A stretch of 64,000 nt of DNA from an uncultured Verrucomicrobiae bacterium. Its GTDB lineage: Bacteria > Verrucomicrobiota > Verrucomicrobiia > Limisphaerales > Palsa-1400. The translations under genes were made by a program, and so were the position numbers. Below the pieces are notes generated by a model. It did no database searches and was not told the origin of the DNA. It saw only the letters and a program-made list of their open reading frames with translations. The stretch is from the NCBI GenBank assembly GCA_963764165.1, contig CAVXRD010000002.1, positions 3,551,161 through 3,615,160 on the forward strand. The letters run 5' to 3'. Shown here in pieces: positions 10,528 to 64,000 of this stretch (the stretch's first letter is position 1; the number at the start of each line of letters is the position of its first letter).

Positions 10528-10561
10528 AAAATTATTCTCAATTACGCATTTACTAAGGGCT

Positions 10562-14188: not shown

Positions 14189-14237
14189 AATCAACCTCCC
14201 TAATGAAATTTCAGACCTGCGCCCCATGCGCCTCCCC

Positions 14238-16979: not shown

Positions 16980-17338
16980 ATATGTTGCGTTCGCAACATC
17001 CGCGTTCAGAGGCTCAAGCGCCGCCTCCGAAACCACGCTGGCAAAGGCGTTCCGCCCTTGCCGAACCCTGACCAAAAGGGGGCTTTGAAGCCGCCCCCTT
17101 GTTGGCAATCCCTGGCTTATTGGGGCTCGCTTCGCATCCCCGGCCAAAGGGCATCTGTCCCTTGGCAAACCTCGACCAAAGAACGGCGTCCTTTGGGATT
17201 CTGCTGTGGTTGGCGCTGCTCGCGCATCGGTGGAACACGCAAACCAGCCGAAGCAATTATGCACGGGTTTTTGAGGTTGAATTAACGGCAATTTAACGGC
17301 ATAATAACGGAAATGTCCGTTTCCGGGTAATTGCCGTT

Positions 17339-22278: not shown

Positions 22279-22283
22279 AAAAA

Positions 22284-22348
22284 CTACGTAGTACTACGTA
22301 GGCAGAATACACAACACTACCGAGGGCAAAATCCGCAGCTTTGCGGAT
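22284..22348. promoter_or_regulatory. Candidate NarL/LuxR-type operator array
   Basis: Perfect 18-bp palindrome CTACGTAGTACTACGTAG (22284-22301), degenerate box TACACAACACTACCGA (22308-22323), palindrome ATCCGCA-GCTT-TGCGGAT (22331-22348). Confidence 0.65.
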
Positions 22349-22386
22349 GCCCTAAAAGGCTCATCCCGAGGCATTATCGCCGGGTT

Positions 22387-22752
22387 GTGGCCAAAATTCT
22401 AATTGTCGAGGACAGCGCTCCCATGCGCGCCATGATCCGCCTCATGGTTGCCCGCCAGGGAGATGAGGTGCACGAATGCGCCGACGGAGCGGCGGCATTG
22501 GATGCCTACGCCGAGTTTAGCCCGGAATGGGTGACGATGGATCTCGAACTCGGCGCAACAGACGGCTTGATGGCGACCGAGCAAATCAAATCCGCCTTCC
22601 CCGCGGCCCGGATCATGATTGTCACCCAACACGACAACGACGCGCTTCGCGATGCCGCCCTCAAGGCGGGAGCATGCGCCTATGTGCTCAAGGACAACCT
22701 TTCCCGACTCCGCGAACTGTTCGCCGGCCCCCGGCCACCCAACAGCAAATGA
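22387..22752 (+). CDS. Single-domain response regulator (REC only)
   Basis: ILIVEDS, VTMDL (phospho-Asp), IMIVT, GACAYVLKD. Confidence 0.9.
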   Translation: MAKILIVEDSAPMRAMIRLMVARQGDEVHECADGAAALDAYAEFSPEWVTMDLELGATDGLMATEQIKSAFPAARIMIVTQHDNDALRDAALKAGACAYVLKDNLSRLRELFAGPRPPNSK

Positions 22753-22789: not shown

Positions 22790-24973
22790 ATGAAAAAGAC
22801 CTTCTTCCCAGCGCTGTTTGCAATTGGATTGATCGCCGGCCCGGCGAAGCTGCTGGCGCAAATGCACACCAACATAGTGTATGTCAATCAATACGCGCCG
22901 AGTTCAAGCCAGCAGACAGGAGCGAACTGGGCCAATGCTTACTTTGACTTGCAGGATGCTCTCACCGCTGTCCAGCCCACAGCCAATACGGTGGTGGAAT
23001 TTTGGGTGGCAGGCGGAACCTATTATCCAGTAACGCCCCAGGATGAACTCAATCCGCTGGCAGCTCTCGAAATAAGGTACTCTTCTTTTAATTTGGCCAG
23101 CCATTTGCACATTCGCGGCGGTTTCAACGGCTGGGAAAGCAGCCCAGACCAGCGCGGAGGCCTGACGCTCACGGTGCTGAGCGGGGACATCGGCACGCCC
23201 ATGGTCAATCCAATTACCAGTTCATCGAATCCATTGACGTTGGCCGACCAGCCGTTCGATCCGAACGATCCCGGCCTGGCGGATAATTGTTACAATGTCA
23301 TTCGGGGAACGGATTGTACCGATGTCGTTTTGGACAGTTTGGTGATCACCGGGGGCTGCGCCAATGGCACCAATTTTTATTCTTTCCAGGATATCCAGGC
23401 GATGTCGGTGGCGGCGCCGATTCCTGACGACTTCCCGGTCAATCAAGACCCGGCGGGAGAGGCAGAAGTTGATTTGGACCCGGTATTGGCGGGGGGCGGG
23501 TTATTTGTCTCAAACCAATACATGCGGACCTACGAGAAGCAGTTGGCAGTCACTGGATGCACGTTCATTAATAATTACACGTCGGGCTATGGAGGGGCGG
23601 TGGCCTTGAAAGACACCCAAGCCGAGATTCTATTTTGCAATTTTTATAACAATCAAAGCGAACAGGAAGGCGGGGCGATTTATGGCCAGAACCAATATTC
23701 GTCTGTATTCGGCTGCGCGTTTGGGGGCAACGCCTCGGCATTTGACGGGGGGGCGCTTTATTTTGAATCGTTTCCGTCCTGGAAGACTATGATTCCAGGC
23801 AACGTGTTGGATTTCCTGCCGCAAAATCCGACAGTGGATGAGTTATCGGCAGTGTTTGTGGTGGCCGTGGGTGGCACCTTGCTCAATGAAGATCAGTTTT
23901 TCTCGGACACTATTACAGCCACCAAAATGGCGAATAACACCCGAGTTTGTTTAAATGGAACTGTGCAGGCGGAGGAAGCAGGTGAAGAGGGTTCCTTCGC
24001 TTCGGATTTATTTTATAAGACGCTTCCGGCCAATCCGGTTGCGAAAGTGACGGCGGTAATTGAGGCCGATGGCGCGGCGGACACGACCGTAGCCGCCCTG
24101 GGGGTGGCAGGCAATGTCTATGGCCTTCTCACCGTCTCCGTCACCGTCGGGAATCTCATCAACGACAAGTGGGGCAACCCAAACTCCACCGCGTACAAGA
24201 ATTGGCAGATTTTTGCAAACGGCTTTAACACTTATGCCACGCCGGCGGGGTGGATTACGTTGCTGATCAATGCGATCACGACGTCGGAGAATAACCAACT
24301 CCAGGAGGAGCAGGCGGAATCTCTCCGGCAACGGGCCGTGGCGACCAAATCGCAGGAGGCAAGTCAGTATAACTGGAGCGATTACTCGACGATTGTCGAT
24401 TGCACGTTTACGAACAATGAGAGCGGCCTTGGTGGCGCGGCGGGGATTTTTTATGATAATGTCCAAATTGAGAATTCTGTTTTTGAACAGAACGTGGCAC
24501 TCTCAGGCGGGGGCGCGTTGGATATCGAATTCTGGAACAGCCCGTTCGTGTTCAACTGCGGATTTTACCAGAACAGTTGCCGGACCAACGGAACCAGCGC
24601 GGCCATGAATCTCCACAATTCCCGCACCAAATTCATCAATTGCACGTTCAACGAGAACTACGCCGGGGGGAGCAGCACCATGTCCAACGGCTGCGCGGTG
24701 AGCAGCGAGTTGGGGGCGGACATCGTCGTGGCCAATTCGATTCTTTGGGGCAATACCAACCCGGCGCTGGCGAACGGCGGCGCGGACCTTCTGGTTGTTA
24801 CCACCAACATGCTTTCCGCCACCAACTACAACGCCTACATCGCCGCGGATGCCGATGACTGCCGGTGGATCGGCCAATGCGATTTGCGAAACAGTTGCGT
24901 GCAGAGTTTGAACATTTTGCCGCAGGGAAGCGAGACTTTCTTCATTTACGATTTCGGGACGTGGTACGTATAA
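22790..24973 (+). CDS. N-terminal part of the giant secreted protein: signal peptide plus most of beta-helix module 1
   Basis: Signal peptide MKKTFFPALFAIGLIAGPAKLLA; YVN...G.NWANAY.DLQDAL, WVAGGTYYP, GGA(I/L/V)/FxxN repeats. Stops before the module's C-terminal cap, which is found in another frame. Confidence 0.85.
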   Translation: MKKTFFPALFAIGLIAGPAKLLAQMHTNIVYVNQYAPSSSQQTGANWANAYFDLQDALTAVQPTANTVVEFWVAGGTYYPVTPQDELNPLAALEIRYSSFNLASHLHIRGGFNGWESSPDQRGGLTLTVLSGDIGTPMVNPITSSSNPLTLADQPFDPNDPGLADNCYNVIRGTDCTDVVLDSLVITGGCANGTNFYSFQDIQAMSVAAPIPDDFPVNQDPAGEAEVDLDPVLAGGGLFVSNQYMRTYEKQLAVTGCTFINNYTSGYGGAVALKDTQAEILFCNFYNNQSEQEGGAIYGQNQYSSVFGCAFGGNASAFDGGALYFESFPSWKTMIPGNVLDFLPQNPTVDELSAVFVVAVGGTLLNEDQFFSDTITATKMANNTRVCLNGTVQAEEAGEEGSFASDLFYKTLPANPVAKVTAVIEADGAADTTVAALGVAGNVYGLLTVSVTVGNLINDKWGNPNSTAYKNWQIFANGFNTYATPAGWITLLINAITTSENNQLQEEQAESLRQRAVATKSQEASQYNWSDYSTIVDCTFTNNESGLGGAAGIFYDNVQIENSVFEQNVALSGGGALDIEFWNSPFVFNCGFYQNSCRTNGTSAAMNLHNSRTKFINCTFNENYAGGSSTMSNGCAVSSELGADIVVANSILWGNTNPALANGGADLLVVTTNMLSATNYNAYIAADADDCRWIGQCDLRNSCVQSLNILPQGSETFFIYDFGTWYV

Positions 24974-27900
24974 TTCAGTTAACAACCAGAATCTTATCTC
25001 GCCCCTCTACACTGGGACTTACCAACAATATGTCGCTGCCGCCGAAGCGGCCTTTAATAGTGCGAATACAGACGAGACGCTCTACGAGAATGGTTTCTAC
25101 AATTCCGGGATGGGGATTCGTCCCGGGGCCTTTACCGGCGCCAACGGCAACATCAGCAGCGATCCGTATCTAGCCAATAAATATCAGCCGGAATTGTTTT
25201 CACCCGTCATCGGCGCCGGCAGCACCAACGTTCTCAACAATGGATTTAACCAACTCATTACGACCTACGATCTTCTAGGCAATCCGCGCTATTACAATGG
25301 CAACATTGACATGGGGGCGACCCAGAATCAGGGAGTGGCGCCGCCGGGCACGATCATTTACGTCAACAAAAATGTCGTCGGAGGCTACCATAATGGCCAG
25401 GACTGGGCCGATGCGTATAGTGACTTGCAGTCGGCCTTGTCCGCGGGGGGGGAACAGTCCCAGGTATGGGTTGCCAGCGGAACGTATATCCCCAACACGG
25501 CATTGTATTTCGCCGGGTTCGATGTGCCAGAGGGGGTATCGGTCTACGGCGGATTCTCCGGCATACCCGGAACGGAAGGGAATCTGGCGGCGTCCCAACC
25601 GGCATTAACACCGACGGTCCTGGCGGGCAGCCGATTATCCGGATCAGGCATTATGACTGCCTATGGCGAGGACAGTTACGCCAGCTTTGCCACTTTCAGC
25701 GGGCTGACGTTCTCGAATGCTCCCGGAGGAGTCGCTCTTGATGTGGACCATTCCTCAGCAATCCAAAACTGTCTTTTCATATCGAATCAAAGCACGCCCG
25801 GCGCTTTGGAAGCCTTCAGCGATCCCCAGCAGATTCGCGCCGTCACGGTTTACGTCACAGATTGCCAGTTTCTGAGCAATTCCTGCACCGGGATCTTTTC
25901 CTCTTGCAGCGATACGGAAGTATCCGACAGCGTTTTTGAAGGAAACCGCTCGACCGGAAACGTGGCCGCGATCGCTGCCGTTGTGGGAGATGATAGAGGG
26001 TTGCTCCACATTTATGATTCGCTTTTCGCGAACAACACCGCGGCGGAAACGGATGGCGGCGCGGTGTCCATTGACGGATTGCAGGGGAATATCGAGAATT
26101 GCACATTCTTTGGGAACCAGGTCAACGCCTCCGCTAATGGCGCGTCCGCCGGCGGCGCGGCCGTGATTTTTAACGCGGAAGACAACGGCTTCCTGTGGGT
26201 GGCCAACTCGATCTTCTACCAGAATAGCGCGGTCAATAGCGGGTCCGGCGGGGTGGATTCGCCAGAGCTGCAACAGATTCAAACCGAGGGATCAAGCGCC
26301 TATTTCATCAGCTATAGCCTGATTGAAGAGGCCAGTAATTATATTGACAATCCGCAAACGGTTTTCCCCGGCAATCCCGGGTTCCGCGCCTCGTCTGTGG
26401 GTAATTTCCAATTGGATCCCAGTTCACCCGCCATTGGCGCGGGCACAATCTCGGAGAGGTATCTTCCTTACGGATACCCGCAAACGGACCTGGCCGGCAA
26501 TGGGCGTGTGATCGGTGAGCGAATGGATTTGGGTCCTTATGAGTATCAAGGCAATGTCACACCCCCGACCAGTCTTCCGGTGATTGTCGAAATTACTAAT
26601 TATAGCTCGAGCGGGATCGCCGAGACAAATTTTACGACCGACGAACCGCCGCTGACATACGTCACGACCAGTTGCAACGGTCCGGGACCAGTCTATCAAA
26701 TCACCTGTCTTTTAGGGACAAACGCCCCTGTCAGATGGTATGTCAACCGCAACGACGGCAAAGGGTGGGTGGGGTTGACGGATGATAATGTCACCAGCGG
26801 TTCAGCCACCACCGTACTGACAATTACCGACCCGCCGACAACCATGAACGGATGGCAATACGAACTGCGAGGAAGCCCCGGCCCCGGCGGAATTCCTTTC
26901 AATTTCACTTCGCTTTCATCCGCGATCACAGTCGATTCTCCGGTTATCTTTGTGAACGCGGCGGCCAAAGGCGGACGGCATGATGGCAGCACGTGGGCGA
27001 ATGCATTCAACGATCTGGGAAGCGCCCTGGCTGAAGCGTCGCCCTGCCATCAGATTTGGGTGGCCGCCGGAACTAATCCGGTGAATTCCTTGAGCCTGGA
27101 GTCGGGTGTGGCGGTCTATGGCGGTTTTGCCGGCAATGAAACCAGCCTTGCGCAACGCAATTGGAGGGTCCACGTGACGACGTTGACGGGGTTTGCCAAC
27201 GGCTCGAACAGCGTTGCGGGACAAACGCCGAATCTCTTCGTCAACGACGGCGCCCGGGGGAACTGTGACGCGACGGCCATTCTGGATGGATTTGTCCTGA
27301 CGGCGGCCAATAGTTCGGCCATTGACAATATAGACGGCGCAAGCCCAACGATCCGGAATTGCGTGTTTACAGGCAATTCGGGAGATGGGGCGGCAATTCA
27401 GGACCAGAACGCGTCCGCGCCGCATGTAACCGCCTGTATCTTTAGCAATAACTTTGCCGGGGCTGGCACGATGTTTGAGAACGGGGGTGTAGCGACCATT
27501 GACAACTGCCTGTTTCTGAACAACTCGGCGGACGAAGGCGGGGCGATATTTGCGGTGAATTCCACCGTCGCGATTATCAACTGCACGATTGCTGGAAACG
27601 TCGCCCGGGAGAATGGCGGGGGTATTTGTGAGGGCAACGGCGTGGAAACGGAGCAGAGTGTTCTCAACATCTATAACTGCATTATTTGGGGCAACACGGT
27701 GAATTCGTCCATTGGCAGCGCTCCTTCGACACTAAGCGCCCAACTGCACCAAGCTTCAATTAACGATACAGCAAACGTGATGAATTCGGACATTGAAGCG
27801 TGGCCGAATAATGCGAACGGGAATATCGCCTACGATCCCTTGTTTAATGCGGATTATACGCTCGATACCAACTCACCGGCGGTCAATAGCGGGAGCAATG

Positions 27901-30900
27901 CGCCGACCAACAGCCCGGCCGACCTGGCTGGGGCCACGCGGGTCGTTGGCGGCACGGTCGATATGGGCGCGTTCGAATTGCAGTCGGCGGCCGCGCCGAC
28001 ACCTGTCGAAGTGACTTCGCTCCCGCAATCGGCCACCTATTGCGCATCTGGCTTGGGGACGTCGCTAACCGTGACCGGCGGCGGGACCGATGTCTATGCG
28101 TGGCAAATAAACACGGGCGCGGGATTCGTGCCCGTGAGCGGTCAGATTTATTCCATAAACACCAGTGGCGGCAACTCGACGCTGTCCATTGCCACTCTTA
28201 CGCCCAGCATGAGCGGCTATCAGTACCAAGCCGTTGTAAATGGAGTTTATTTTTCACTCCCGGCGACGCTAACAGTTGACTCACCGACGACAATTTTTGT
28301 CAACCAGCACGCCAGCGGGGCCAATAACGGGACCACCTGGGCCAATGCTTTCACGAGCTTGAATACGGCGCTCGAGGCGGCTTCCGGGGGTTGCGTTCAA
28401 ATATGGGTGGCGGCGGGCACCTACCAGGCGCCCAGCGCGGGTTTTGCGATGCGCTCAGGCGTTGGGATTTATGGCGGGTTCAACGGTTCGGAAAGCGCTT
28501 TAAGCAGCCGCAATTGGACGGCCAACATTTGCATCCTCACACCCACAGGGAATAATGGGGTCATCGTTAATGACGGATCGGAAACGTCCGTGGATGCGAC
28601 GGCGATTCTGGACGGTTTCACCATCCAGGCGACCAACTCGATCCGAGCGGTGGAAAATCATTCCGGTGTCACACCGACCATTTCCAACTGCACATTCCAA
28701 GGGGCCGAAACAGCCATTTATGAGCAGGATTCTAGCGGAACCATTGGCAACTGCACTTTCGAGAACACTTCGGAACAGGCGATTTACCTGGAAGGGGCCG
28801 CTCCGCTCATCGCTAACTGCGAGTTCTCGAGCAACGTGGGAGCAATCTATAACAGCGGGAGCAGCCCGACGATCCAGGATTGCTCGTTCACCAATAATAC
28901 GAGCAGCGCGATTGAAAGCGCCGGTTCCTCAAGTCCGTTGATTAATCGTTGCATTTTTACCGGCAATACCGCCTGGCAAGGCGCCGGGTTGATGGATGAC
29001 TTCGAGTGCAGCCCGACGGTGGCCAACAGCTTATTTTACAACAATAGAGCCAGCTCCGTCGGTGGCGCTATTGTGCATGATGGCTCTTCTTTAACGGTGT
29101 TGAACTGCACGTTCTCGCAAAACTCGGCCGGCTATGACGGTGGAGCGATTTACGACGAAGGCACGAATCTGGCCGTCCTTAATTCGATTGTTTGGAACAA
29201 TCAGCTTGAATCAGAAGCCCTTGGACCTCGCACTCTCGAGCAACAACAGATTAATTATTACAGTGCCCAAGGCACCCCACCGGCAATCAGCAATTCATGC
29301 ATCGACGGACTCACCATTTATGCTGGCAACTTCAACATCGGCTATGATCCTCTGTTTAGTCAGCCGGCGGCGGGGGATTTCAGGTTGCAAGCGCCATCCC
29401 CTGCCATCGGGGGCGGCAATGGCGCCTACACGGCCACATATTTGACTGATCTGGCCGAATACCAACGTGTCGCCGGCCAACCGGTGGATATGGGCGCTTA
29501 CGAATTTCGAGGCACGCCCCTGCCGCCAATCGAGATTGCGCAAGCGCCGGTTGCGCAAATCGTTTGCGACGGGACGCCGTTTTCGTTCGCGCTGTCCTTC
29601 AGCGGTAATGCGCCTGTGCCTCAAGTTCAATGGCAAGTCAACAGCGGCGGGGGTTTTGTTGATGTTCCGACTGGCGCTCCCTACATGATAGTCAGCAACG
29701 AAACGTCGAACGTGCTTTCGGCCACGGCGGAATCGGCGTGGAGCGGAAATACTTATCGTTGGACCGTGCCGTCGGAAGGTTTTACCAGCGCGCCGTTCTC
29801 ATTGACGGTTAATCCAATTCAAATCATTTATGTCCAGGCTGGGGCGTCCGGTGCCAATAACGGGACCACTTGGGCCAACGCCTACACCAGCTTGAATACG
29901 GCGCTTGAGGCGGCTTCCGGGGGTTGCGCTCAAGTGTGGGTGGCGGCTGGCACTTACCAGGCGCCCAGCGCGGGTTTTGCGATGCATTCTGACGCCGGGA
30001 TCTATGGTGGGTTCAACGGCTGGGAAAGCGCTTTAAGCAGCCGCAATTGGACGACCAACATCTGCATCCTCACCCCCACAGGGAATAATGGGGTCATCGT
30101 TAATAACGGATTGGAAACGTCCGTGGATGCGACGGCGATTCTGGACGGTTTCACCATCCAGGCGGCCAACTCGAGCCGAGCGGTGGGAAATTATTCCGGT
30201 GTCACGCCGACCATTTCCAACTGCACGTTTCAAGGGGCCGCAACAGCCATTTATGAGCAGGATTCTGGCGGAACCATTGGCAACTGCTCTTTCGAGAACA
30301 CTTCGCAACAAGCGATTTACCTGGAAGGGGCCGCTCCACTCATCGCTACCTGCCAGTTCTCGAACAACATGGGAGCAATCTATAACAACGAGAGCAGCCC
30401 GACGATCCAGGATTGCTTGTTCACCAATAATACGAGCAGCGCGATTGAAAGCGCCGGTTCCTCAAGTCCGTTGATTAATCGTTGCATTTTTACCGGCAAT
30501 ACCGCCTCGCAGGGCGCCGGGTTGCTGGATGGCGTCACGTGCAGTCCGACGGTGGCCAACAGCTTATTTTACAACAATAGAGCCAGCTCCGTCGGTGGCG
30601 CTATCGTGCATGATGGCTCTTCTTTAACGGTGGTTAATTGTACGCTGGCGCAAAACTCGGCCGGCTATGACGGTGGAGCGATTTACAACTATGGCACGAA
30701 TCTGGCCGTCCTTAATTCGATTGTTTGGAACAATCAGCTCCAATCACAAATCTTTGGGCCTCGCACTCTCGAGCAACAACAGATTAATTTTGAAGGCGCC
30801 TTAGGCACCCCACCGGCGATCAGCAATTCATGCATCGACGGACTGGCCATTTATGCTGGCAACTTCAACATCGGCTATGATCCTCTGTTTAGTCAGCCGG

Positions 30901-48010: not shown

Positions 48011-51000
48011 CTATGGCCTGACATTAGCGCAGGCCCTCGAAGCGCCCGGCCTTGTTTTCTCCAACAGCGGCAATGCAATTTGGTTTGGCGAAACGAATGT
48101 CACTTATGACGGCATCGCCGCCGCGCAAAGTGGCGCTATTACTGGTTCCGGCCAAAGCATTATGCAAACGACCGTGACAGGACCTGCCACCGTTTCTTTC
48201 TGGTGGAAGATCTCCGGCGAATCGGATCTGATTTTCTATCTTGACGGACAGTTGGCGGACAATGTTTATAACGTATCTGGCTGGCAGCAGGTAAAGCTCA
48301 ATATTGCCTCGGGTCCTCACACGCTGGAATGGGTTTACTCTCAAAACTACAACTATGCCCTGGTATCCAACGCCGCCTGGGTGGCTGACTTGGTCGTCAC
48401 TCCCAATCCGTTCATTTCCGTCCAGCCTTCCAGCGAGACCGTTCCTGCCGGCGGGACGGCTCTCTTTACCGCGTATGCTTCTGGCGCTAGTCCTTTCGCT
48501 TATCAATGGTCGTTCAATGGCACAGTTATTCCGGACGCGACATCTTCCACCTACTCGATAACGCCGGCTCAATCAGCCAATGCCGGTGATTACTCTGTCC
48601 AGGTAGGAAACAGCCTGGGCACGAATACAAGCTCCAATGTGACTCTGTCCGTTACCTCCTCACTGGCCCAGGCCCTGAGCACCTCGGGCTTGACCTGGCA
48701 GACTGGAGGAAACACCGATTGGTTCACAGAAGGCTCAATTACCTACGGAACCAATACCTACGCCGCTCAATCCGGGAATATTTCGAGCAATCAGCAAAGT
48801 TGGATGGAAACCACCATAACCGGCCCCGGAACACTCTCGTTCTGGTGGAAAGTTTCCTCGGCAGCCAATCACGGCCTGCTGGAACTTTCCCTCAACGGCG
48901 TTTCCACCAACGCCATTTCCGGCGAAGTCGATTGGCAGCCGGTCAGCATTCATTTGGGGCCGGCCGTTTATGATTTGCGTTGGACGTATCAGAAGGATGG
49001 CGCCCCGCCATCCGGGACGGACGCCGCATGGGTTGACCAAGTCGGTTTCGTCATCGACGCCAACACTTACATTGCTGTCACATCAACGGCGGACAGCGGC
49101 CGCGGCACTTTGCGACAGGCATTGTTGGATAGCAGCCTCATTTCCGTGCCCACTGTTATTGATGCCACTGGCGTTTCCGGCAGCATTTCCCTCCTCAGCA
49201 TGCTGCCGATGATTACCAACAGCGTGATCATCAATGGCCCCGGCGCGTCCAATCTCACGATCAGTGGCAATCAAAGCAATCGAATCTTCTTCATCAATGC
49301 CCCGGGGCAAACCGTCGCCGTCAATCAGTTGACTTTGTCCAACGGCTTTGCCCAGGGCGGCAATGGCGGATTCGGCGGCGGTGGCGGGGGCGCTGGTCTC
49401 GGTGGCGCAATGCTCATTAACGCGGGTGATGTTACCGTTTCGGGCGTCGCTTTTGTCAGCAATAGTGCCGCGGGTGGCAATGGCGGCTCGACTATCCTCA
49501 ATCCTGACACCTACCCCTCCGGGGTCGTCGGCGGCGGTGGTGGCGGACTGGGAGGCAACGGCGGCAATTACGATGGCGGCGCGGGTGGCGGTGGGGGGTT
49601 TGCCGGTAATGGCGGAAATGGCTATGGACCCGGCGGCGGCGGCGGTGGATTTGAGGGCAATGGCGGCGACGGCAACTACGGCAGCGGTGGAGGCGGCGGC
49701 GGACTCACCGACGGTCAATCCGGTTCAAATGCAAACTACGGGAGCGGCAGTTCGGGCGGAGTGGACGGCGGGAATGGTGGAACGTATACCGCTTCTGGCA
49801 GTAATGGAGAAATATTTGGCGGCGGCGGAGGCGCTGGGTCAGGTGTCGGTGGGGGCGGCGGAGAATTTGGCGGCGGTGGCGGGGGCGCGGGTGGAAGCGG
49901 CGGCGCGTCTGGCGATTTCGGCGGCGGAGGTGGAGGCGACGACTACCAAAACGGTGATAACGGCGGGAATGCCAGCGGTTTAGGCGGCGGTGGAGGCGCT
50001 GGGTATATTGGCGGTCAAGGCGCCTTCGGTGGTGGTGGCGGAAGTTCTGCCGGGAATGCTCCCGCTGGAAGTGTGGCGTTCGGTGGCACGGCAGAATACT
50101 CCTACAGCGGCGGTGGAGGAGGAGCGGCCCTCGGCGCGGCCGTGTTTGTACGGAGTGACAATGGTGCGTCGCTCCACGGTATTGACGTCACTTTTGATTC
50201 TGGTTCGCTTACTCCGGGTACCGGAGGAACCGGGATCTATGGTGACCCGGGAACATCCGGCGGCTCGGCGGGCAGCTCGCTCTTCTTGCTTGGCGGCACA
50301 AATACCCTGACGGTGAACGCCGGTCTCACGAATACAATAGCCGGAAGTATCGGCGGATGGGACGGTTCGCCTGGCCTTCTCATCAAGGACGGACTCGGCA
50401 CTCTGATTTGCGGAACAGCCAACGGCCTGCAAGGCGAAGTTCAGCTTGTCGCCGGCGCGCTGCTACTCAACGGCAGTGATCCCAACACTTCCATCACAGT
50501 CAATAGTGGCACAGCTCTCACCGCCAATGGACGGCTTGCCTTCAGCAATCTGGTCTGGTCCGGCAGCGGTTCTTATAGTTGGAATTTCCGCAATGCAACA
50601 GCATCCGCAGGCACGGGTTATGATTCGCTCGATCTCAGCGGAACTCTGGACGTTTCCGCCGCCACAAATTTTGCCATCAACGTGTTGACTCCATCCGGCG
50701 GTACGGCCAACTTTGTCAGTACGACGCCGGGGTGGTGGACATTAGTCCAGACCACGAAAGGAGTTTTAGGGTTCAATCCCGCCAACTTTGACATTATCAC
50801 TAATGGCCCGGGCACCGGCCAGTTCACTTTGATTCTGTCCTCCGATAGCAACAGCCTGATCCTGAACTATGCGGCGCCGCAGACCATTTCGTTTTCATCC
50901 AACGGCCCGATAACACTTGGCTCCGTTCCCCTTTCGCTGCAAGCCACTGCTTCATCTGGTTTGCCGGTGCAATTCTCGCTGGTGTCCGGCCCGGCAACTC

Positions 51001-54000: not shown

Positions 54001-57000
54001 CTGCCGTCCAACAGACCTTCTCCGTTGGCCCGCCGCTAATCACCGTCACGGTCAGCAACGCCACCCGCTTTTTCGGCCAAACAAACCAGACCTTCACGGG
54101 TGAGTTGCTCGGCGTCATTGCGGGGGATGACATCGGAGCCTCATATAATGCTGTGGTCCCGCCGGATCCAACCATCCCCGATACTTATGACTTAGCTTTT
54201 GGCGTCGGCGGTGACGGGCCGGGCCTGCTCCAAAGTCCCGAAAACATCGCCACCGACGCCTACGGCAACATTTACGTCGTCAACTACAATCGGGCTGCCG
54301 GATTCACCAATTGGATCGAAGAATTTGATCGTTATGGCAACTACATTGCCCAATTCGGCTCGCTCCCCGGAGAGTTGCAATATCCAGCGGAGATCGGGCT
54401 GGACTCCGGCGGGAATCTCTATGTTGCCGACTTCTACGCCAATCGCATCGTTAAATTCGACACGGCCGGAAACTTTATCACCAATTGGCCGGCTGTGTCC
54501 CCCTACGGCTTGGCGGTGGCAAATTCCAGCGTTTATGTGCCGGAATTGTACAACGGCATAGCGCAATTCGACCTGGACGGCAATATTATCAGGACAATTA
54601 ACATTGGAGTCGGATATAACACCAGCCTTGCCATCGATACCAATGGAAATTTTTACCTCAGCGGTGAAGTCGTTGGTAGCTTCGACTCGAATGGAAATTT
54701 TCTCCATCTCTTCCGCCTGCCTTCTACCGTTACGCCTAACGGATACTTTGCGAATGGAATCTGTGTCGGAAACGATGGCTACATCTATATCCCGGATAGT
54801 CAGTACAATCGTATCCTGAAGTTCGATACCAACGCCAATTTCCTCGCCAGTTGGAATGGAGATTTCGGGGCCACAGGTCCTTATGGTGTCGTTCAGTCGC
54901 CTTTGGGTCAAATTGTGGTCGCCGCGCCGTCGCTGGATCAAGTGCAAGTATTCTCCCCGCCGCCCGGCTCGCCGGTCACCGCCTCGACACCTGTCGGAAC
55001 ATATCCAATCGTCCCCTCTTTGATTAACCCGGATGGCAGCTTAACCAACTACCTCCTTCTCGTGACCAACGGAACCCTGACGATCGAACTGATACCGCAA
55101 ACGATTTCCTTTGCTCCAATTGGAGACCAAACCGTCGGCGCCAATCCCATTACTTTGACCGCCTCGTCGGACAGCGGTCTTTCTGTGACATTCAGCGTGA
55201 CATCCGGCCCCGCCACCCTTTCCAGCAATGTGCTAACCTTGACGGGTGCTGGAAACGTCATTGTTGAAGCGGACCAACTGGGCGACACAAACTACGCCCC
55301 GGCTACTCCCGCGATTCAATCATTTTTCGTCCGCACCGTTCCAACGCTAACATGGAATCCCGGCACGATACATTCCGGCATGACTTTAGGCGCTGACCAA
55401 CTTGATGCCGCCGCTTCAGTTCCGGGATCCTTCTCCTACACGCCACCTCTGGGCGCAATCGTCTCCACCGGCGCCAACTCGTTGGCGGTCCAGTTTACGC
55501 CAACGGACTCCGTCGATTACACGAACGCGTCGCTTTCGATCACCCTGGACGCTCTGCCGCCATTGCAAACCCCAACCGCCACCAACCAAGTGTTGACCGA
55601 TATAGGCGGCACTTCGCTGCCTGTGACGCTGACCGGCGGCGATCCAGATGAGGATTCGTTGACCTTTGCCATTGTCACTCAACCTGCCAACGGTAACCTG
55701 ACTGGCACGGCACCCAACATTGTTTATACGCCGAACGCCGGTTTTGCGGGCAACGACGCGTTTACATTTGAAGTCTTGGACGGCCCAAGCAATTCTCCGC
55801 CAGCCACCATTTCCATAGACACCCTTTTCGCTCCAGCGTCGGTCACCCTCCCAGCCAGCGACATCACCAGCAATGCCGCAACCCTAAATGGCGCCGCCAA
55901 TCCCGAATTTGCCGATACCCAGGTATATTTCTTATACGGCCCAACCCAATCCTATGGAAGCGCCACTCAGCCAATGGATATCGGCGCCGGGACAAACTTG
56001 GTTGCCGTGACAAACCGCGTTTGCGGCGTGACCTCCGACTCGATCTATCATTATCAATTGGTCGCCTCCAATATTGCCGGCGTTACTTATGGTGGTGACA
56101 AAGTATTCGTTCCCATCAGTAGCGCAATTATTGCCACCACCGAGGCGGCAACCGGCATTGGATTTAACAGCGCCACTCTTAATGGCAGTGTTCAACCCAG
56201 TATTACTCCGGCGGCCGTCTTCTTCGAGTATGGAACCGATACAAACTACGGCTTGGATACCACCACCAATTACTATTCTGACTTCTTCACCGCCCTGGCT
56301 TTCGACGGCGTTGATCAATATGCCGCCGTCGCGCAACCGAACGTTCCCGTCGGCGACTCGCCTTACACGATCGAAGCGCGGATCAATCCAGTCTCGATGG
56401 GCACCGAAGGAATCATTGGTTGGGGCGAATTCGGCAATGGCAATGCTGTCAACGCCTTTCGCCTGACCGATTCTGGATTGATTAATTACTGGTGGGGCAA
56501 CGATTTGACAGTCAATACCCCCGATTTGTCCGGTTCATGGCATCATGTCGCGGTTACGTTCGATGGAAATACTCGCACGATCTACCTCGATGGTGTGGCT
56601 CTCGGCTCCGATAATCCTGGCACTGGTCACGCTGTCGATGACTCAAATCTCAATATCGGCGTCACCGATTTCGGCGAATTCTTCAACGGGGCGATTGGCG
56701 AAGTCCGCGTTTGGAACACGGCCCTTCCGCAATCCACTATTCAAGCGTGGATGAATAGCACGTTGTCTCCGGCCCATCCTTATTTTGCTCAGTTACAGGC
56801 CTGGTGGCCGATGAACGAAGGTTCTGGCGATACTATTATCGACCAAAGTGGCAACGGGAACAACGGCACTCTCATGAATGGACTGCAATGGACGAATATC
56901 GCCCGAACCGCTTGGCCCGTTGCGGCCTACACCAGCAATCTGCTGGCTGGCACTACCTATCACTATCGGTTGGCGGCGCTTGGTCAGTCCAGCTCGGCTT

Positions 57001-60000
57001 TTGGCGATGACTTCGTCTTTAGCACCTTGACGCCGCCCCCGCCAACGGTCGTCACCCTGGGCGCGCTTTCAACTTCGGGAGGAATCACTCTGGACGCGCG
57101 TGTCAATCCAGAGCACGGCGCCACTTATGCCTGGTTCCAATACGGGATCGACACAAACTATGGAAGCACGACTTCGGAAATAAGTCTTGGCGCAACAAAT
57201 GCCTCCATCTTTGTCAGCGCCACGATATCATCCGGTTCAATCTACCACTATCGCGCTGTTGCCTCGAATATCGGCGGCGTTACGTATGGCGACGACCTGG
57301 TTTTTCCCCCTGCTGGCGCCGGCGCGGCCACGCCCATTATTGCCACTACGGAGGCCGCCAGTGGTGTTGGGATCACTCATGCCACGCTTAATGGCAGCGT
57401 CCATCCAAATGCAACTCCGGCCGCCGTTTTCTTCCAATATGGAATCAATACGAACTACGACTTCGACACCGCGACCAACTATTACTCCGCCTTCTCAGAC
57501 GCCCTGGCTTTCGACGGCAACCAAACTTATGTTGATTGCGGGACAAATATCGACCTTGATGCCGGTTCGTTTACCATCGAGTTCAATGCGCTCCGTAGTT
57601 CCTTCGGACGCTACGATCTCATCGTCGGGGATGGCCAATCGGAAAACACCGACCAATACCTGCATATCGGCTTCCGTGATTACGATGTCTTCACCTTCGC
57701 CTTCTATGGTGATGACCTGAACACACCGATGCCCATCGACACCACCACTGGCACCAATGTTTGGCATCACTGGGCCTGCGTCTATGATGCGAATGCGAAC
57801 ACCCGCAGCATCTATATGGATGGCATGCTTCTGGCCCAGGACAATCCCACCGGCCAATTACAAGCCGTGGGAGAATTCGATCTCGGACTGGCTTTTGGCA
57901 ACTATTACCTGGGTCTGCTCCAGGAAGTGCGCGTTTGGAACGCGGCCCTGCCGCAATCCACAATTCAAGTCTGGATGAATAGCACGGTCTCCCCGGCCCA
58001 TCCTTATTTTGCTCAGTTACAAGCGTGGTGGCCGATGAATGAAGGTTCTGGCGATACCATTATCGACCAAAGCGGCAGCGGAAACAACGGCACTCTCATT
58101 GATGAGCCGCTATGGACTAATTTTGACCAAAGCATCTGGCCAATAACCAACCTCACAACCAATCTCCTGGCCGGCACGTCATACCATTACCAGCTTGCGG
58201 CAGTAGGCGAGATTAGTTCGGCCTTTGGAAACGATGTCACTTTCACTACCTTGCCGTTGGCCCCGCCGCAAGTCTTTACCCTCTCCGCGACGATGTTTGC
58301 CACAAATAATACAGCCATCCTCAATGGCGCTGTCCTGCCTGATGGCAGCGATACGATAGCCTGGTTCGAGTATGGACCGGATACCAATTATGGCAACGCC
58401 ACTGCCGCGCAAAATCTCGGAAGCAGTGATCTGACACCATCTTTGCCTCAGGCTGCAATCCAGAATGCCATTGGCACACACTACCGCCTGGTCGCTTCCA
58501 ATGGCTTGGGAACGTTTTACGGAGCCGATTGGGTGATTGATCCGCCGGCAACCCTCGTCGGCACCAATTTCACTCAGTTGAAATATGGCGCCATGGCCTG
58601 GGGCGATCTCAACAACGACGGCTACCTCGACCTGGTCCAAACCGGTTACGATACCAACTACAACTCAGTGACCGAAATCTGGATGAACCAGGGCAATGGC
58701 ACATTCGTCAAAAGTCCCGCCACTCTGACCCAGGTTGGCAACAGCTCTATTGCCCTCGCCGACTACGACAATGATGGTTATCTGGACATCCTCCTCACCG
58801 GCTACGATAACAATGGCTACGCCGATACCGAATTGTGGCGCAACATGGGTGATGGCACCTTTACTAACGTGAATATTCCGCTCCCGGGAGTCGGCTACAG
58901 CGCCGTGGCCTGGGCCGACTTTGATAACGATGGAAAACCGGACATACTCCTCACCGGCTACGACAACAATGGCGATAACGTCGCTCAAATCTGGCGTAAT
59001 TTGGGAGGCGGCGTCTTTACTAACCTGAACGTCCCGCTAACCGGCATTTCCGATTCCTCTGTTGCTGTGGGTGATTTGATGGGAGACGGCTACATGGACA
59101 TTGTGCTCGGCGGTTGGGTTAATAATAACTATATTTCACAAGTCTGGCGCAACCTGGGCAATGGAGTCTTTACAAATCTCAATGTCCCATTGCCCGGGAT
59201 TAATACGGAGCCTAACTCCATAGCTTTGGGAGATTTTGGAAACGACGGACACCTGGACATTTTGTTAGAGGGCCAAGACACTAATTATAACCCGGTGTGC
59301 CAGCTTTGGCACAATTTGGGTGGTGGCATATTTACCAACGCGAACGCAAATCTGCCTCCGCTTTTTTGGGGATCGCTTGCCGTCGGTGATTACAATAATG
59401 ACGGCTACCTGGATATCCTTTTAACAGGATTCGATATTCAAGGTTACGAACAGACATCGCTCATGCTCAATCAGCGCAATGACACGTTCGCCGATGCCAA
59501 TGAAGGCTTGCCGCCGCTTCAATACGGTTTCGTTACTTTCGGCGATTTCAATAATGATGGACGCATCGATATGTTTTTATTGGGATTGAATTTCAACTAT
59601 CAACCGCTTTCTGAACTGTGGCAAAATAATTGCATTACCTCGAACACCCCGCCAAGCCCCCCCACAAACTTATGGCTTTCGTATAGTGCCACTAACGCCG
59701 TGCTGACTTGGAATGCAGGCAGCGATGCGCAGACTCCGGTTCAGTCTCTAAGCTACAATGTTCGCGTCGGCTCCGCTCCGGGAGCATCCGATGTTGTCTC
59801 TCCTCAATCTTTGCCAAACGGCTATCGCTTGTTGCCGGCGCCGGGCAACGCGGGAGAGCGACTGTTCCTGCTGCTGACTAATTTGAACGTCGGTTCCAAC
59901 TACTACTGGACCGTTCAAGCCGTCGATGGTGCGTACGCCGGTTCTTCTTTCGCAGCCGAACAATCGTTCACTTTTACGCCGCCTGCACCCACAATTCAGG

Positions 60001-63000
60001 AAACGATTACGTTCAATTCTATTTCAAACCATGCCTACGGCGATTCGCCATTCGCCCTGGCCGCCTCGACGTCTCCGGATAACGGCTTGCCTATTGCATT
60101 TACCGTCCTATCCGGTCCGGCCAGCATAGGCAGCAATCTTTTGACAATTACTGGGGTCGGCACTGTTTTCGTCCAAGCCGCCTTGGTGACTAACAGCCAA
60201 TACGTTGCCGCGCCCGTTCAGCAATCGTTTATTGTCAATGTGGCATCACCATCGATTTTGTGGACCAATCCGGTGAGCATCACCTACGGCACGGCGCTGG
60301 ACAGCAATCAACTCGGGGCCAGCGCCAATGTGGCGGGCACGTTCGCTTACAACCCGACCAATGGCACGGTGCTCGAGACCGGCACCAACACGCTGACCAC
60401 GGTCTTTACCCCGGCGGACACGGTGGATTATCTGGCGGTCACAGGCACCGTGACGCTGATTGTTGTGCCGGCGCCGTTGATGGTGACGGCCCATGACGCG
60501 AGCCGCAGCTATGGCCAGGCCAATCCCACCTTCAGCGGCACGATCAATGGATTGGTCAATGGCGACAGCATCACCGCCAGTTATTCGACCGCGGCCACCC
60601 CCGGCAGCCCGGTTGGAAGTTATGCCATTGTCCCGAGCCTGGCAGATCCGAACAACCTCGAATCGAACTACACCGTGACCCTGGTCAATGGGACGCTGGC
60701 CGTCACTCCAGCGACGCCGATCCTTGCCTGGACCAATCCGGTGAGCATCACCTACGGCACAGCGCTGGACAGCAATCAACTCGGGGCCAGCGCCAATGTG
60801 GCGGGCACGTTCGCCTACAACCCGACCAATGGCACGGTGCTCGAGACCGGCACCAACACGCTGACCACGGTCTTTACCCCGGCGGACACGGTGGATTATC
60901 TGGCGGTCACAGGCACCGTGACGCTGATTGTTGTGCCGGCGCCGTTGATGGTGACGGCCCATGACGCGAGCCGCAGCTATGGCCAGGCCAATCCCACCTT
61001 CAGCGGCACGATCAATGGATTGGTCAATGGCGACAGCATCACCGCCAGTTATTCGACCGCGGCCACCCCCGGCAGCCCGGTTGGAAGCTATGCCATTGTC
61101 CCGAGCCTGGCAGATCCGAACAACCTCGAATCGAACTACACCGTGACCCTGGTCAATGGGACGCTGGCCGTCACTCCAGCGACGCCGATCCTTGCCTGGA
61201 CCAATCCGGTGAGCATCACCTACGGCACAGCGCTGGACAGCAATCAACTCGGGGCCAGCGCCAATGTGGCGGGCACGTTCGCTTACAACCCGACCAATGG
61301 CACGGTGCTCGAGACCGGCACCAACACGCTGACCACGGTCTTTACCCCGGCGGACACGGTGGATTATCTGGCGGTCACAGGCACCGTGACGCTGATTGTT
61401 GTGCCGGCGCCGTTGATGGTGACGGCCCATGACGCGAGCCGCAGCTATGGCCAGGCCAATCCCACCTTCAGCGGCACGATCAATGGATTGGTCAATGGCG
61501 ACAGCATCACCGCCAGTTATTCGACCGCGGCCACCCCCGGCAGCCCGGTTGGAAGCTATGCCATTGTCCCGAGCCTGGCAGATCCGAACAACCTCGAATC
61601 GAACTACACCGTGACCCTGGTCAATGGGACGCTGGCCGTCACTCCAGCGACGCCGATCCTTGCCTGGACCAATCCGGTGAGCATCACCTACGGCACGGCG
61701 CTGGACAGCAATCAACTCGGGGCCAGCGCCAATGTGGCGGGCACGTTCGCCTACAACCCGACCAATGGCACGGTGCTCGAGACCGGCACCAACACGCTGA
61801 CCACGGTCTTTACCCCGGCGGACACGGTGGATTATCTGGCGGTCACAGGCACCGTGACGCTGATTGTTGTGCCGGCGCCGTTGATGGTGACGGCCCATGA
61901 CGCGAGCCGCAGCTATGGCCAGGCCAATCCCACCTTCAGCGGCACGATCAATGGATTGGTCAATGGCGACAGCATCACCGCCAGTTATTCGACCGCGGCC
62001 ACCCCCGGCAGCCCGGTTGGAAGTTATGCCATTGTCCCGAGCCTGGCAGATCCGAACAACCTCGAATCGAACTACACCGTGACCCTGGTCAATGGGACGC
62101 TGGCCGTCACTCCAGCGACGCCGATCCTTGCCTGGACCAATCCGGTGAGCATCACCTACGGCACAGCGCTGGACAGCAATCAACTCGGGGCCAGCGCCAA
62201 TGTGGCGGGCACGTTCGCCTACAACCCGACCAATGGCACGGTGCTCGAGACCGGCACCAACACGCTGACCACGGTCTTTACCCCGGCGGACACGGTGGAT
62301 TATCTGGCGGTCACAGGCACCGTGACGCTGATTGTTGTGCCGGCGCCGTTGATGGTGACGGCCCATGACGCGAGCCGCAGCTATGGCCAGGCCAATCCCA
62401 CCTTCAGCGGCACGATCAACGGATTGGTCAATGGCGACAGCATCACCGCCAGTTATTCGACCGCGGCCACCCCCGGCAGTCCGGTTGGAAGTTATGCCAT
62501 TGTCCCGAGCCTGGCAGATCCGAACAACCTCGAATCGAACTACACCGTGACCCTGGTCAATGGGACGCTGGCCGTCACTCCAGCCACGCCGATCCTTGCC
62601 TGGACCAATCCGGTGAACATCACCTACGGCACAGCGCTGGACAGCAATCAACTCGGGGCCACCGCCAATGTGGCGGGCACGTTCGCTTACAACCCGACCA
62701 ATGGCACGGTGCTCGAGACCGGCACCAACACGCTGACCACGGTCTTTACCCCGGCGGACACGGTGGATTATCTGGCGGTCACAGGCACCGTGACGCTGAT
62801 TGTTGTGCCGGCGCCGTTGATGGTGACGGCCCATGACGCGAGCCGCAGCTATGGCCAGGCCAATCCCACCTTCAGCGGCACGATCAATGGATTGGTCAAT
62901 GGCGACAGCATCACCGCCAGTTATTCGACCGCGGCCACCCCCGGCAGCCCGGTTGGAAGTTATGCCATTGTCCCGAGCCTGGCAGATCCGAACAACCTCG

Positions 63001-64000
63001 AATCGAACTACACCGTGACCCTGGTCAATGGGACGCTGGCCGTCACTCCAGCGACGCCGATCCTTGCCTGGACCAATCCGGTGAGCATCACCTACGGCAC
63101 AGCGCTGGACAGCAATCAACTCGGGGCCAGCGCCAATGTGGCGGGCACGTTCGCCTACAACCCGACCAATGGCACGGTGCTCGAGACCGGCACCAACACG
63201 CTGACCACGGTCTTTACCCCGGCGGACACGGTGGATTATCTGGCGGTCACAGGCACCGTGACGCTGATTGTTGTGCCGGCGCCGTTGATGGTGACGGCCC
63301 ATGACGCGAGCCGCAGCTATGGCCAGGCCAATCCCACCTTCAGCGGCACGATCAATGGATTGGTCAATGGCGACAGCATCACCGCCAGTTATTCGACCGC
63401 GGCCACCCCCGGCAGCCCGGTTGGAAGCTATGCCATTGTCCCGAGCCTGGCAGATCCGAACAACCTCGAATCGAACTACACCGTGACCCTGGTCAATGGG
63501 ACGCTGGCCGTCACTCCAGCGACGCCGATCCTTGCCTGGACCAATCCGGTGAGCATCACCTACGGCACGGCGCTGGACAGCAATCAACTCGGGGCCAGCG
63601 CCAATGTGGCGGGCACGTTCGCCTACAACCCGACCAATGGCACGGTGCTCGAGACCGGCACCAACACGCTGACCACGGTCTTTACCCCGGCGGACACGGT
63701 GGATTATCTGGCGGTCACAGGCACCGTGACGCTGATTGTTGTGCCGGCGCCGTTGATGGTGACGGCCCATGACGCGAGCCGCAGCTATGGCCAGGCCAAT
63801 CCCACCTTCAGCGGCACGATCAATGGATTGGTCAATGGCGACAGCATCACCGCCAGTTATTCGACCGCGGCCACCCCCGGCAGCCCGGTTGGAAGCTATG
63901 CCATTGTCCCGAGCCTGGCAGATCCGAACAACCTCGAATCGAACTACACCGTGACCCTGGTCAATGGGACGCTGGCCGTCACTCCAGCGACGCCGATCCT
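24912..64000 (+). CDS. Giant multidomain surface/adhesin-like protein, remainder (~13,000 codons, open at window end)
   Basis: The frame with codons starting at positions divisible by 3 opens after TGA 24909-24911. It gives sensible domains wherever sampled, including the last line (VNGTLAVTPATPI). No long plus-strand ORF ends in this span in the track, as expected if no stop is reached. Confidence 0.92.
28310..32575 (+). repeat. Three closely related tandem copies (modules 4-6) with a 1533-bp period
   Basis: Identical blocks recur at +1533; the shadow ORFs at 28555, 30088 and 31621 show the period. Confidence 0.93.
48020..49050 (+). other. Two jelly-roll/CBM-like domains separated by an Ig domain
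   Basis: LAQAL...WF...AAQSG.I...QS.M.TT.TGP...SFWWK.S...W......G...L.W.Y occurs twice (~48020 and ~48660). Confidence 0.6.
49065..50870 (+). other. Gly-rich, autotransporter-passenger-like segment
   Basis: VTSTADSGRGTLRQAL head, GGFGGGGGGAGLGGA, long GGGGG/FGGGG runs to ~50280, IKDGLGTLI (PATR-like) near 50380. Confidence 0.7.
54180..54955 (+). other. NHL-repeat beta-propeller
   Basis: PENIATDAYGNIYVVN, PAEIGLDSGGNLYVADFYANRIVKFD, NGICVGNDGYIYIPDSQYNRILKFD. Confidence 0.8.
55830..58540 (+). other. FN3-like domains carrying two LamG/ConA-like lectin domains
   Basis: ATLNG.V.P...F.YG.DTNYG...YHY domains; LamG motifs ALAFDG...WHHVAVTFDG..RTIYLDG...F.GAIGEVRVWN at ~56290-56890 and ~57500-58120. 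Confidence 0.8.
58580..59630 (+). repeat. Seven FG-GAP/VCBS repeats (Ca2+-binding propeller), followed by an FN3 domain
   Basis: WGDLNNDGYLD, LADYDNDGYLD, WADFDNDGKPD, VGDLMGDGYMD, LGDFGNDGHLD, VGDYNNDGYLD, FGDFNNDGRID at ~156-bp spacing. Confidence 0.88.
60261..64000 (+). repeat. Tandem array of at least 8 near-identical 468-bp (156-aa) Ig-like plus MBG units
   Basis: TGGACCAATCCGGTGA starts at 60261, 60729, 61197, 61665, 62133, 62601, 63069 and 63537; the array runs off the window. Confidence 0.97.

What the first reader, a model, noticed from the sequence alone, without database searches (positions are those of the whole stretch)
22790..64000. Hidden giant gene: secreted multi-adhesin of more than 13,700 codons
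Seen: one plus-strand gene of >41 kb, mostly absent from the ORF track because no stop is reached. Order: signal peptide, 16 beta-helix(+Ig) modules, 2 CBM-like domains, Gly-rich passenger-like segment, MBG/Ig stalk, NHL propeller, cadherin-like Ig, FN3+LamG x2, FG-GAP propeller, FN3, then at least 8 MBG-type repeats. Known: beta-helix, LamG, FG-GAP and MBG folds occur in adhesins and glycan-binding surface proteins. Inference: a very long filament displaying many different binding heads. I do not recognise a 16-fold beta-helix/Ig array from any characterised protein.
Basis: partly seen in the sequence, partly recalled or inferred. Interest (0 to 1): 0.92.

Follow-up and report, generated by a model that had tools for sequence, protein, structure and literature searches.

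The report
Giant bacterial rod with hydrophobic tip
This is a real gene of more than 14,000 codons, split once near its start in this assembly, from an undescribed family of giant exported bacterial proteins in which a chain of beta-helix and immunoglobulin modules is predicted to form a stiff rod that likely holds out one fast-changing, hydrophobic tip to grip other cells.

Summary
The giant gene is real but is not one open frame: a 727-codon frame (22790-24973) and a 13,029-codon frame (24912 to the contig end) are two pieces of one gene, split by a frameshift that homologs lack. Assembly error or true break cannot be told. The gene probably ends on contig C5 (at least 14,390 codons) and is the last gene of an island at tRNA-Thr. 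Sixteen beta-helix modules and the domain order are confirmed. It is not unique: three paralogs sit in this genome and relatives of 4,800-11,500 aa in 9 of 300 genomes of the order, with 7-14 modules. The family's constant core is head + rod + C-terminal FYR domain; the 'many binding heads' are variable extras. Best reading: a stiff surface rod with a target-gripping tip; a membrane-attacking spear is not excluded.

The parts
22790..22858 (+). Predicted Sec signal peptide (23 aa: two Lys, hydrophobic core, Ala before the cut)
   Evidence: Read by eye from the translation; homolog heads also start with such peptides; no predictor run
22790..24973 (+). ORF1, 727 aa: signal peptide and most of module 1 (head beta-helix)
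   Evidence: AF2 model pLDDT 78, pTM 0.80, beta-helix; VIA Z 25-27 to Vag8, phage ORF18, AlgE
23774..24373 (+). Alpha-helical insert in the head (ORF1 aa 329-528): hypervariable first half, hydrophobic helix, then motif G.DPN...W..F...FN.YATP.G
   Evidence: no Pfam, PHROG, NCBIfam, PDB-sequence or fold match
24929..24970 (+). Zone of the single frameshift (+1 offset) that splits the gene; no base run longer than 3 here
   Evidence: ORF1 matches homologs to Gly713, 87% conserved; long frame carries the next family motif; sequence
24912..64000 (+). ORF2, 13,029 codons without a stop, runs off contig C2
25353..48008 (+). Modules M2-M16: N-cap + beta-helix + choice-of-anchor Q + Ig, 433-563 aa each; M4-M6 79-89% identical, other pairs 24-48%; paired Cys at Ig/next-helix junctions
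48018..49061 (+). CBM-like domain, I-set Ig, CBM-like domain
   Evidence: Pfam Ig_3/I-set; Atlas leads CBM_4_9 0.88 (21% of members), Cleaved_Adhesin 0.86, MAM 0.85, all under 0.9
49071..50876 (+). Gly-rich passenger-like segment
   Evidence: Sequence; no Pfam, NCBIfam or PDB-sequence hit; a related segment recurs in the C5 ORF, 37% over 155 aa
50877..55568 (+). Ig/MBG stalk units around an NHL propeller (54174-54956)
   Evidence: Pfam MBG_2, NHL; coordinates
55569..59981 (+). Big_9/cadherin-like Ig, FN3-like units with two LamG domains, FG-GAP propeller (58554-59636), FN3
   Evidence: Pfam Big_9, Laminin_G_3 x2, FG-GAP_3, fn3
60261..64000 (+). 8.0 copies of a 468-bp (156-aa) unit, 99% alike, no indels: one Ig-like and one MBG_2 domain each; the contig breaks here
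13088..13229 (+). tRNA-Thr(tgt), its 23-bp 3' end (13142-13164) and a 20-bp arm-like repeat (13210-13229); both recur on C5 (2344-2366, 22/23; 2217-2236, 20/20) just after the likely gene end
13350..18430 (.). Island cargo: truncated integrase-like ORF (13350; name inferred, no family hit), DDE transposase (15045-15764), MobA/MobL relaxase (15844-16800), Fic protein (17339-18430)
18502..22752 (+). Reg_prop/Y_Y_Y histidine kinase (18502-21729), broken NarL-type regulator (21730-22278), single receiver domain (22387-22752)

Best explanation
The window holds most of one gene, split by a single frameshift, for an exported protein of likely at least 14,390 residues that is predicted to be a surface-tethered stiff rod holding one hydrophobic, fast-evolving tip away from the cell to grip a target surface, likely another cell. 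Shown: the frames, the 16 modules, the family-wide order head + (beta-helix/Ig)n + variable tail + C-terminal FYR domain, the insert present once and only in module 1, the co-occurring junction cysteines. Inferred: Sec export, outer-membrane passage and tethering through the FYR domain (so the N-terminus is distal); disulfides lock each Ig to the next beta-helix; the rod (very roughly 150-200 nm for 16 modules, from recalled domain sizes) reaches past capsule or slime; the insert's hydrophobic helix binds a membrane or a hydrophobic partner while its variable half sets specificity; LamG, FG-GAP and CBM-like domains add optional glycan grip; a propeller-type kinase controls expression; islands spread the genes.
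For: Same grammar in 34 of 34 relatives that carry the insert, always after the first cap and with no Ig behind module 1; 27 of these 34 end in an FYR-like motif (read by eye), 3 are cut off, 4 end otherwise. Insert profile hits 43 of 150 relatives, once each (several were used to build it). Junction Cys: both 158, neither 75, one only 19 of 252; 0 of 36 Ig domains not followed by a helix have it; in the window M2's cap and M16's Ig lack it, as expected. No conserved acid in the coil columns 108-315 of 284 modules; Lys+Arg 2%: structural, not catalytic. Insert identity 11% and 23% against 35-36% in flanks, first half lower than flanks in 33 of 34 closer pairs. Most hydrophobic 19-mer at the same place in 48 of 55 heads, median 1.65. 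Pmp-type GGA[ILV] x24 and FxxN x89. NarL-type regulator within 1.5 kb upstream of 6 of 22 head genes (two were the queries) against 37 of 2,951 background ORFs.
Against: No binding, location or expression data. Polarity rests on analogy; the FYR domain matches no NCBIfam sorting signal and lies on another contig. The hydrophobic helix is marginal: 30 of 55 reach 1.6 and only 6 of 55 beat shuffles of their own insert at p<0.05, so it may be an ordinary buried helix. The insert models are weak (pLDDT under 50 for much of it; 66 alone). This copy may be dead: the neighbouring regulator and integrase are broken. Kin are not independent in any of the counts.
Confidence: 0.5

Rival explanations
1. 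Contact weapon: the rod delivers a membrane-inserting (pore-forming or translocating) helical domain into neighbouring cells, and the variable half of the insert is under arms-race selection.
For: Amphipathic helices around a small-residue hydrophobic helix (GxxxG in 23 of 55; small-xxx-small 302 against 250 expected), single copy at the tip, fast divergence, four distant heads in one genome (4 changes on a quick tree), island location, patchy spread (0 of 4 same-genus genomes).
Against: No fold match to any pore-former (best Z 6.8, unrelated bundles). No orphan insert cassettes: all 16 matches in 401 genomes are the heads the profile was built from, none among 79-406 aa proteins. No small immunity-like gene seen behind the C5 end or behind the paralogs (by eye). 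Hydrophobicity is marginal.
Confidence: 0.2
2. Inverted polarity: the hydrophobic insert anchors the N-terminus in the producer's own envelope, the FYR domain is only an export signal, and the lectin-like tail domains are the working heads.
For: The insert is the only membrane-like segment and is in every member; LamG, FG-GAP and CBM-like domains cluster in the C-terminal half.
Against: Members with almost no tail exist (P0033, P0014, G181); identical stalk repeats sit next to the C-terminus, as in C-anchored adhesins (recalled); an own-membrane anchor need not be hypervariable.
Confidence: 0.12
3. Multi-enzyme chain: each beta-helix is a polysaccharide lyase or hydrolase of different specificity, induced by a glycan-sensing kinase.
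For: Fold neighbours include alginate epimerases/lyases, RbmB and tailspikes, Z 24-26; modules differ (24-48% identity); Reg_prop/Y_Y_Y kinase upstream.
Against: No conserved acid and only two weakly conserved Arg in the coils of 284 modules; very few Lys/Arg; no PDB sequence hit for the helix of M11; the top fold match (Vag8) is not an enzyme, and a shared fold shows no function.
Confidence: 0.1
4. State of this copy (independent of function): the frameshift is real and the gene is a young pseudogene in a decaying island, not an assembly error.
For: Neighbouring regulator is about 100 nt short and out of frame; integrase-like ORF truncated; no long base run at the break.
Against: 39 kb behind the break hold no stop and the 8 repeats no indel; about 9 of 132 FYR-tailed ORFs (437 kb) are split alike and 7 private indels lie in 94 kb of multicopy DNA, so about one break is expected in 43 kb whatever the cause. 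Programmed shifting is unlikely: 15 of 15 other inserts found lie in frames that run on.
Confidence: 0.45

Closest known systems
Giant non-fimbrial adhesins (SiiE, LapA type)
   Same: Very long chain of Ig-like stalk units with lectin-like domains; reach as the likely purpose (SiiE 595 kDa, T1SS substrate: PMC6272769, search listing only; the rest recalled).
   Different: Signal peptide and a C-terminal FYR domain instead of a type I signal; half of the protein is a beta-helix/Ig array; a helical insert at the N-terminal tip.
Chlamydial Pmp adhesins
   Same: GGA(I/L/V) and FxxN repeats forming beta-helix coils (PF02415/TIGR01376 hits; PMC11166332 and PMC2997323, search listings only).
   Different: Sixteen separate capped helices, not one passenger; no autotransporter barrel in the likely C-terminus (no family hit on the C5 ORF).
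Choice-of-anchor Q (NF041518) beta-helix repeat proteins
   Same: Each module carries the domain over its cut-off where tested (4 of 4 complete modules scanned); tandem arrays of such helices are common among the 150 hits.
   Different: Ig spacers with paired Cys, the head insert and the FYR end mark a distinct subfamily (43 of 150 hits). The NCBIfam name describes a domain, not a function.
T9SS cargo with C-terminal domain (Bacteroidota)
   Different: No NCBIfam CTD hit; PorV and GldK below cut-off; five secretin genes are present, so another route is possible.
Beta-helix pore-formers and contact toxins (VacA, CdiA)
   Same: Beta-helix scaffold with a hydrophobic helical part (VacA: PMC4926140, search listing only; CdiA recalled).
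   Different: No sequence or fold match of the insert; no orphan cassettes or immunity-like genes found; different export.
Omnitrophota giant proteins (10.1101/2023.11.21.568195, passages read)
   Same: Giant genes in the PVC group; the paper notes proteins of 10,000 aa or more also in Verrucomicrobiota.
   Different: Those have many membrane helices, peptidase and SecA domains and antiparallel helices; the passages read do not describe this architecture.

Membership tests
Choice-of-anchor Q beta-helix proteins | NF041518 over cut-off | tested here: met
   29.6-44.6 bits against cut-off 25 in four modules
Chlamydial Pmp autotransporters | GGA(I/L/V)/FxxN repeats | tested here: met
Chlamydial Pmp autotransporters | C-terminal autotransporter barrel | tested here: not met
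   No Pfam or NCBIfam hit on the likely end, C5:2-1963; paralogs end in the ~75-aa FYR domain; an unassembled gap remains
T1SS giant adhesins (SiiE/LapA) | No Sec signal peptide; C-terminal type I signal or RTX repeats; adjacent T1SS genes | tested here: not met
   Signal peptide by eye; no RTX hit in the pieces scanned (not every module was scanned); neighbours are not T1SS
T9SS cargo | CTD matching T9SS sorting models | tested here: not met
   0 NCBIfam hits on four C-terminal pieces
T9SS cargo | T9SS machinery in the genome | tested here: inconclusive
   PorV below cut-off with a working control; GldK below cut-off; SprA and PorP none, but their controls did not ring
Polysaccharide-active beta-helix enzymes | Right-handed parallel beta-helix fold | tested here: met
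Polysaccharide-active beta-helix enzymes | Conserved catalytic Asp/Glu/Lys/Arg in the coils | tested here: not met
   284 modules; module-specific active sites are not excluded
Alpha pore-forming / translocation domains | Fold or sequence match to a known domain | tested here: inconclusive
   nothing above background, on a model of pLDDT 66
Alpha pore-forming / translocation domains | Membrane-length hydrophobic helix | tested here: inconclusive
   median 1.65, 30 of 55 at or over 1.6, 6 of 55 beat shuffles
Alpha pore-forming / translocation domains | Oligomerises and permeabilises membranes | not testable with these tools
Polymorphic toxin systems | Orphan variable cassettes and adjacent immunity genes | tested here: not met
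   no orphan insert found in those searched; neighbours, by eye
Integrative island at a tRNA | Direct repeat of the tRNA 3' end at the far side | tested here: met
   22/23 on C5, the only copy with under 3 mismatches besides the tRNA
Integrative island at a tRNA | Empty site in relatives | tested here: inconclusive
   gene order differs in four same-genus genomes; no empty site seen

The most novel reading that the evidence does not exclude
An undescribed contact-dependent spear of Verrucomicrobiota: a disulfide-stiffened rod of 7-16 beta-helix/Ig modules carries, at its tip, a new class of membrane-inserting helical domain grafted into a beta-helix, with a hypervariable half that picks the target, and moves between genomes on tRNA islands with its own sensor kinase.
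Probability: 0.2. Interest if true: 0.88.

Novelty: new variant of a known kind. Interest (0 to 1): 0.6.

Why it matters
Verrucomicrobiota are abundant and poorly cultured, and what their giant genes do is open. This family gives a fixed architecture and one testable part: a 200-residue insert that can be expressed alone or in its 800-residue head. If it only grips, it is a new adhesin tip and a natural design for a stiff 100-nm-scale protein rod. If it inserts into membranes, it is a new route of contact antagonism or predation. One member lies intact in a closed, single-contig genome (G377). The case also shows how a 43-kb gene vanishes from annotation through one frameshift and one repeat-broken contig.

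Tried and rejected
Reads across the break: no sequencing run was listed; no metagenome contig held the junction pattern; the 727-aa form is on record from one contig only; no read-through version among 399-1,273 aa proteins (capped at 8,000 candidates). A codon-usage scan did not place the break. Two separate genes: rejected, because the ATG at 25110 lies inside a conserved motif and homologs are continuous. Chimera: not supported; the array follows the family grammar. A sigma-70-like site overlaps the break (24945-24974), but 3 sites against 2.4 expected is chance. Insert identity: no hit in Pfam (three weak single-member hits), PHROGs, NCBIfam, PDB sequences, Foldseek, VIA or the Atlas; a missing match does not show a new fold. 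Insert in other contexts: only two family members among 407-2,000 aa proteins and none among shorter ones (word-limited, weak). Named genomes: the search for related loci gave only two generic helix matches. G458 and G639 are generic helix proteins without the head. Empty island site: not found. Literature: nine full-text searches listed no paper on this family; most subscription papers are not covered, and the supplements of 10.1101/2023.11.21.568195 (a list of the longest public proteins), which I did not see, may hold members. No Rfam family but the tRNA in 1-26000.
Full report
Observation. The window is the last 64 kb of contig C2 of a 7.0-Mb, five-contig genome. One + frame has no stop from 24912 to the end, 13,029 codons. 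The two overlap and are offset by +1; together they span 13,736 codons. So the 'single open gene' is wrong as written.

One gene, one break. ORF1 holds a signal-peptide-like start (by eye) and most of module 1; the long frame begins with the rest. Its first 150 residues hit two paralogs of this genome in the same frame as, and right after, their ORF1 match. In an alignment with 17 homologs the motif N.GEG.RP follows the region where ORF1 ends; in the window it lies in the long frame at 25101, and the ATG at 25110 is inside it. ORF1 agrees with homologs to Gly713, so the break lies in 24929-24970. No reads were available. For an assembly error: 39 kb without a stop, 8 repeats without an indel, about 9 of 132 FYR-tailed ORFs split alike (crude test), 39 split against 1,008 intact paralog-backed ORFs, many in multicopy elements, 7 private indels in 94 kb of multicopy DNA. 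For a true break: the upstream regulator is about 100 nt short and out of frame, the integrase-like ORF is truncated, and no long base run lies at the break. I put error at 0.5, true break at 0.45, recoding at 0.05.

The missing end. C2 ends inside 8.0 copies of a 468-bp unit. Of ten contig ends only C5's 5' end begins inside a long + frame, 654 codons; it starts with the same stalk unit (51-53% to the repeats) and ends in the FYR domain. Six ends are multicopy repeats. The 3' end of tRNA-Thr (13142-13164) recurs at C5:2344-2366 (22/23) and a 20-bp arm-like repeat (13210) recurs exactly at C5:2217, both in direct orientation just behind that ORF. This makes the join C2-to-C5 likely, the protein at least 14,390 aa, and the gene the last of an island that also holds a transposase, a MobA relaxase, a Fic gene and a Reg_prop/Y_Y_Y kinase. 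The empty site was not seen in four same-genus genomes, whose gene order differs.

Anatomy. Sixteen modules: the head and M2-M16, each N-cap, beta-helix, choice-of-anchor Q and, except the head, an Ig domain. M4-M6 are 79-89% identical, other pairs 24-48%.

A family. Three paralogs lie in this genome (11,324, 7,863, 4,925 codons). The head matches 4 of 40 relatives, 5 of 30 family and 0 of 4 genus genomes, 9 of 300 in the order (frames of 4,792-11,454 aa where not cut) and 4 of 400 in the phylum, two with a true head. One homolog is labelled Verrucomicrobiales; the phylum of this genome I take from earlier notes, untested. Of 44 long sequences mapped, 34 carry the insert; all 34 read head, no Ig, then helix/Ig modules, 7-14 caps in all, then a variable tail; 27 end in an FYR-like motif, 3 are cut, 4 end otherwise. 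Some have hardly any tail. The window's 16 is the largest count seen. The four heads of this genome fall in four places on a quick tree of 55, which fits old paralogy or transfer; no donor is claimed. A NarL-type regulator lies within 1.5 kb upstream of 6 of 22 head genes (two supplied the queries; two had under 700 bases held) against 37 of 2,951 background ORFs.

(a) Module 1 has an insert of 115-230 residues. AF2 on 32 sequences gives a confident beta-helix with a helical excursion of low confidence; the helix matches Vag8 (Z 26.7, rmsd 2.6, 295 aligned), phage ORF18 (26.3) and AlgE-type enzymes (25-26), tied. The insert alone, folded from homolog L015, is all-helical, its second half at pLDDT 81-93 over residues 101-150, with no match above background (best Z 6.8, rmsd 4.8, 103 aligned) and no family hit. 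Its first half is 11% identical between members, its second 23%, the flanks 35-36%; the most hydrophobic 19-mer sits at one place in 48 of 55, median 1.65, but beats shuffles in only 6 of 55. It was found once per protein (43 of 150 hits) and in no other context (limited searches). (b) A Cys early in each Ig goes with a Cys in the next cap: 158 both, 75 neither, 19 one only; 0 of 36 unfollowed Ig domains and 7 of 101 caps without an Ig before them have one. A disulfide staple is inferred, not shown. (c) In 284 non-head modules the conserved charges lie in the caps and Ig; the coils have no conserved acid, against a shared catalytic site.

Mechanism. Most likely (0.5): Sec export, tethering through the FYR end, a stiff rod, and one N-terminal tip whose helical insert grips a target surface, with optional lectin-like domains below. 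Rivals: membrane-attacking spear (0.2), inverted polarity with the insert as own anchor (0.12), enzyme chain (0.1). Export route is open: no T9SS signal hit, T9SS parts below cut-off or untestable, five secretins present.

Known kinds. It works like a giant adhesin and shares Pmp-type coils and the choice-of-anchor Q domain, but fails the barrel, type I and T9SS-signal tests. Papers: passages of 10.1101/2023.11.21.568195, PMC3482391 and PMC11573180; abstract and outline of 10.64898/2026.03.19.712371; others as search listings only. Nine searches listed no description of this family.

Noticed in passing
G000:C1:939962-973933, C3:374073-397661, C2:453436-468210: Three intact paralogs of the giant gene. 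The C2 one starts just outside a copy of the tRNA-Thr(cgt) 3' end (468540) with the same arm-like repeat; the C1 one lies between tRNA-Ala and tRNA-Pro.
   Followed up: partly
window 21730-22278: NarL-type regulator directly behind the kinase is about 100 nt short and out of frame in its receiver half.
   Followed up: partly
window 13350-13890 and eight other places in G000: Integrase-like ORF family without a Pfam or NCBIfam hit in this truncated copy, several copies beside tRNA genes and with a shared 20-bp arm-like repeat.
   Followed up: partly
L075:6750-7829 (G377) and the matching place in G551: A TIGR02597 gene (tested for G377) and a PEP-CTERM-like gene directly follow the giant gene; P0016 seems to end in a similar domain. 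Possible anchoring partners.
   Followed up: partly
G000:C2:1559019-1561230: Cluster of nine tRNA genes, one called with anticodon tta ('Stop') by ARAGORN.
   Followed up: no
G000:C1:835137-843056 (-): 2,640-codon secreted protein whose end looks, from recall, like the C-terminal part of Tc-type toxin A subunits.
   Followed up: no
G000 whole genome: 132 ORFs end in the FYR domain; about 9 are split from an upstream signal-peptide ORF by a frameshift.
   Followed up: partly
window 7333-10614 (-): CHASE2/adenylate cyclase gene beside a FecR-domain gene; ordinary.
   Followed up: no
G000:C1 ends: The first 878 bases of C1 equal its last 878 bases: a repeat at both ends or a circular contig.
   Followed up: no
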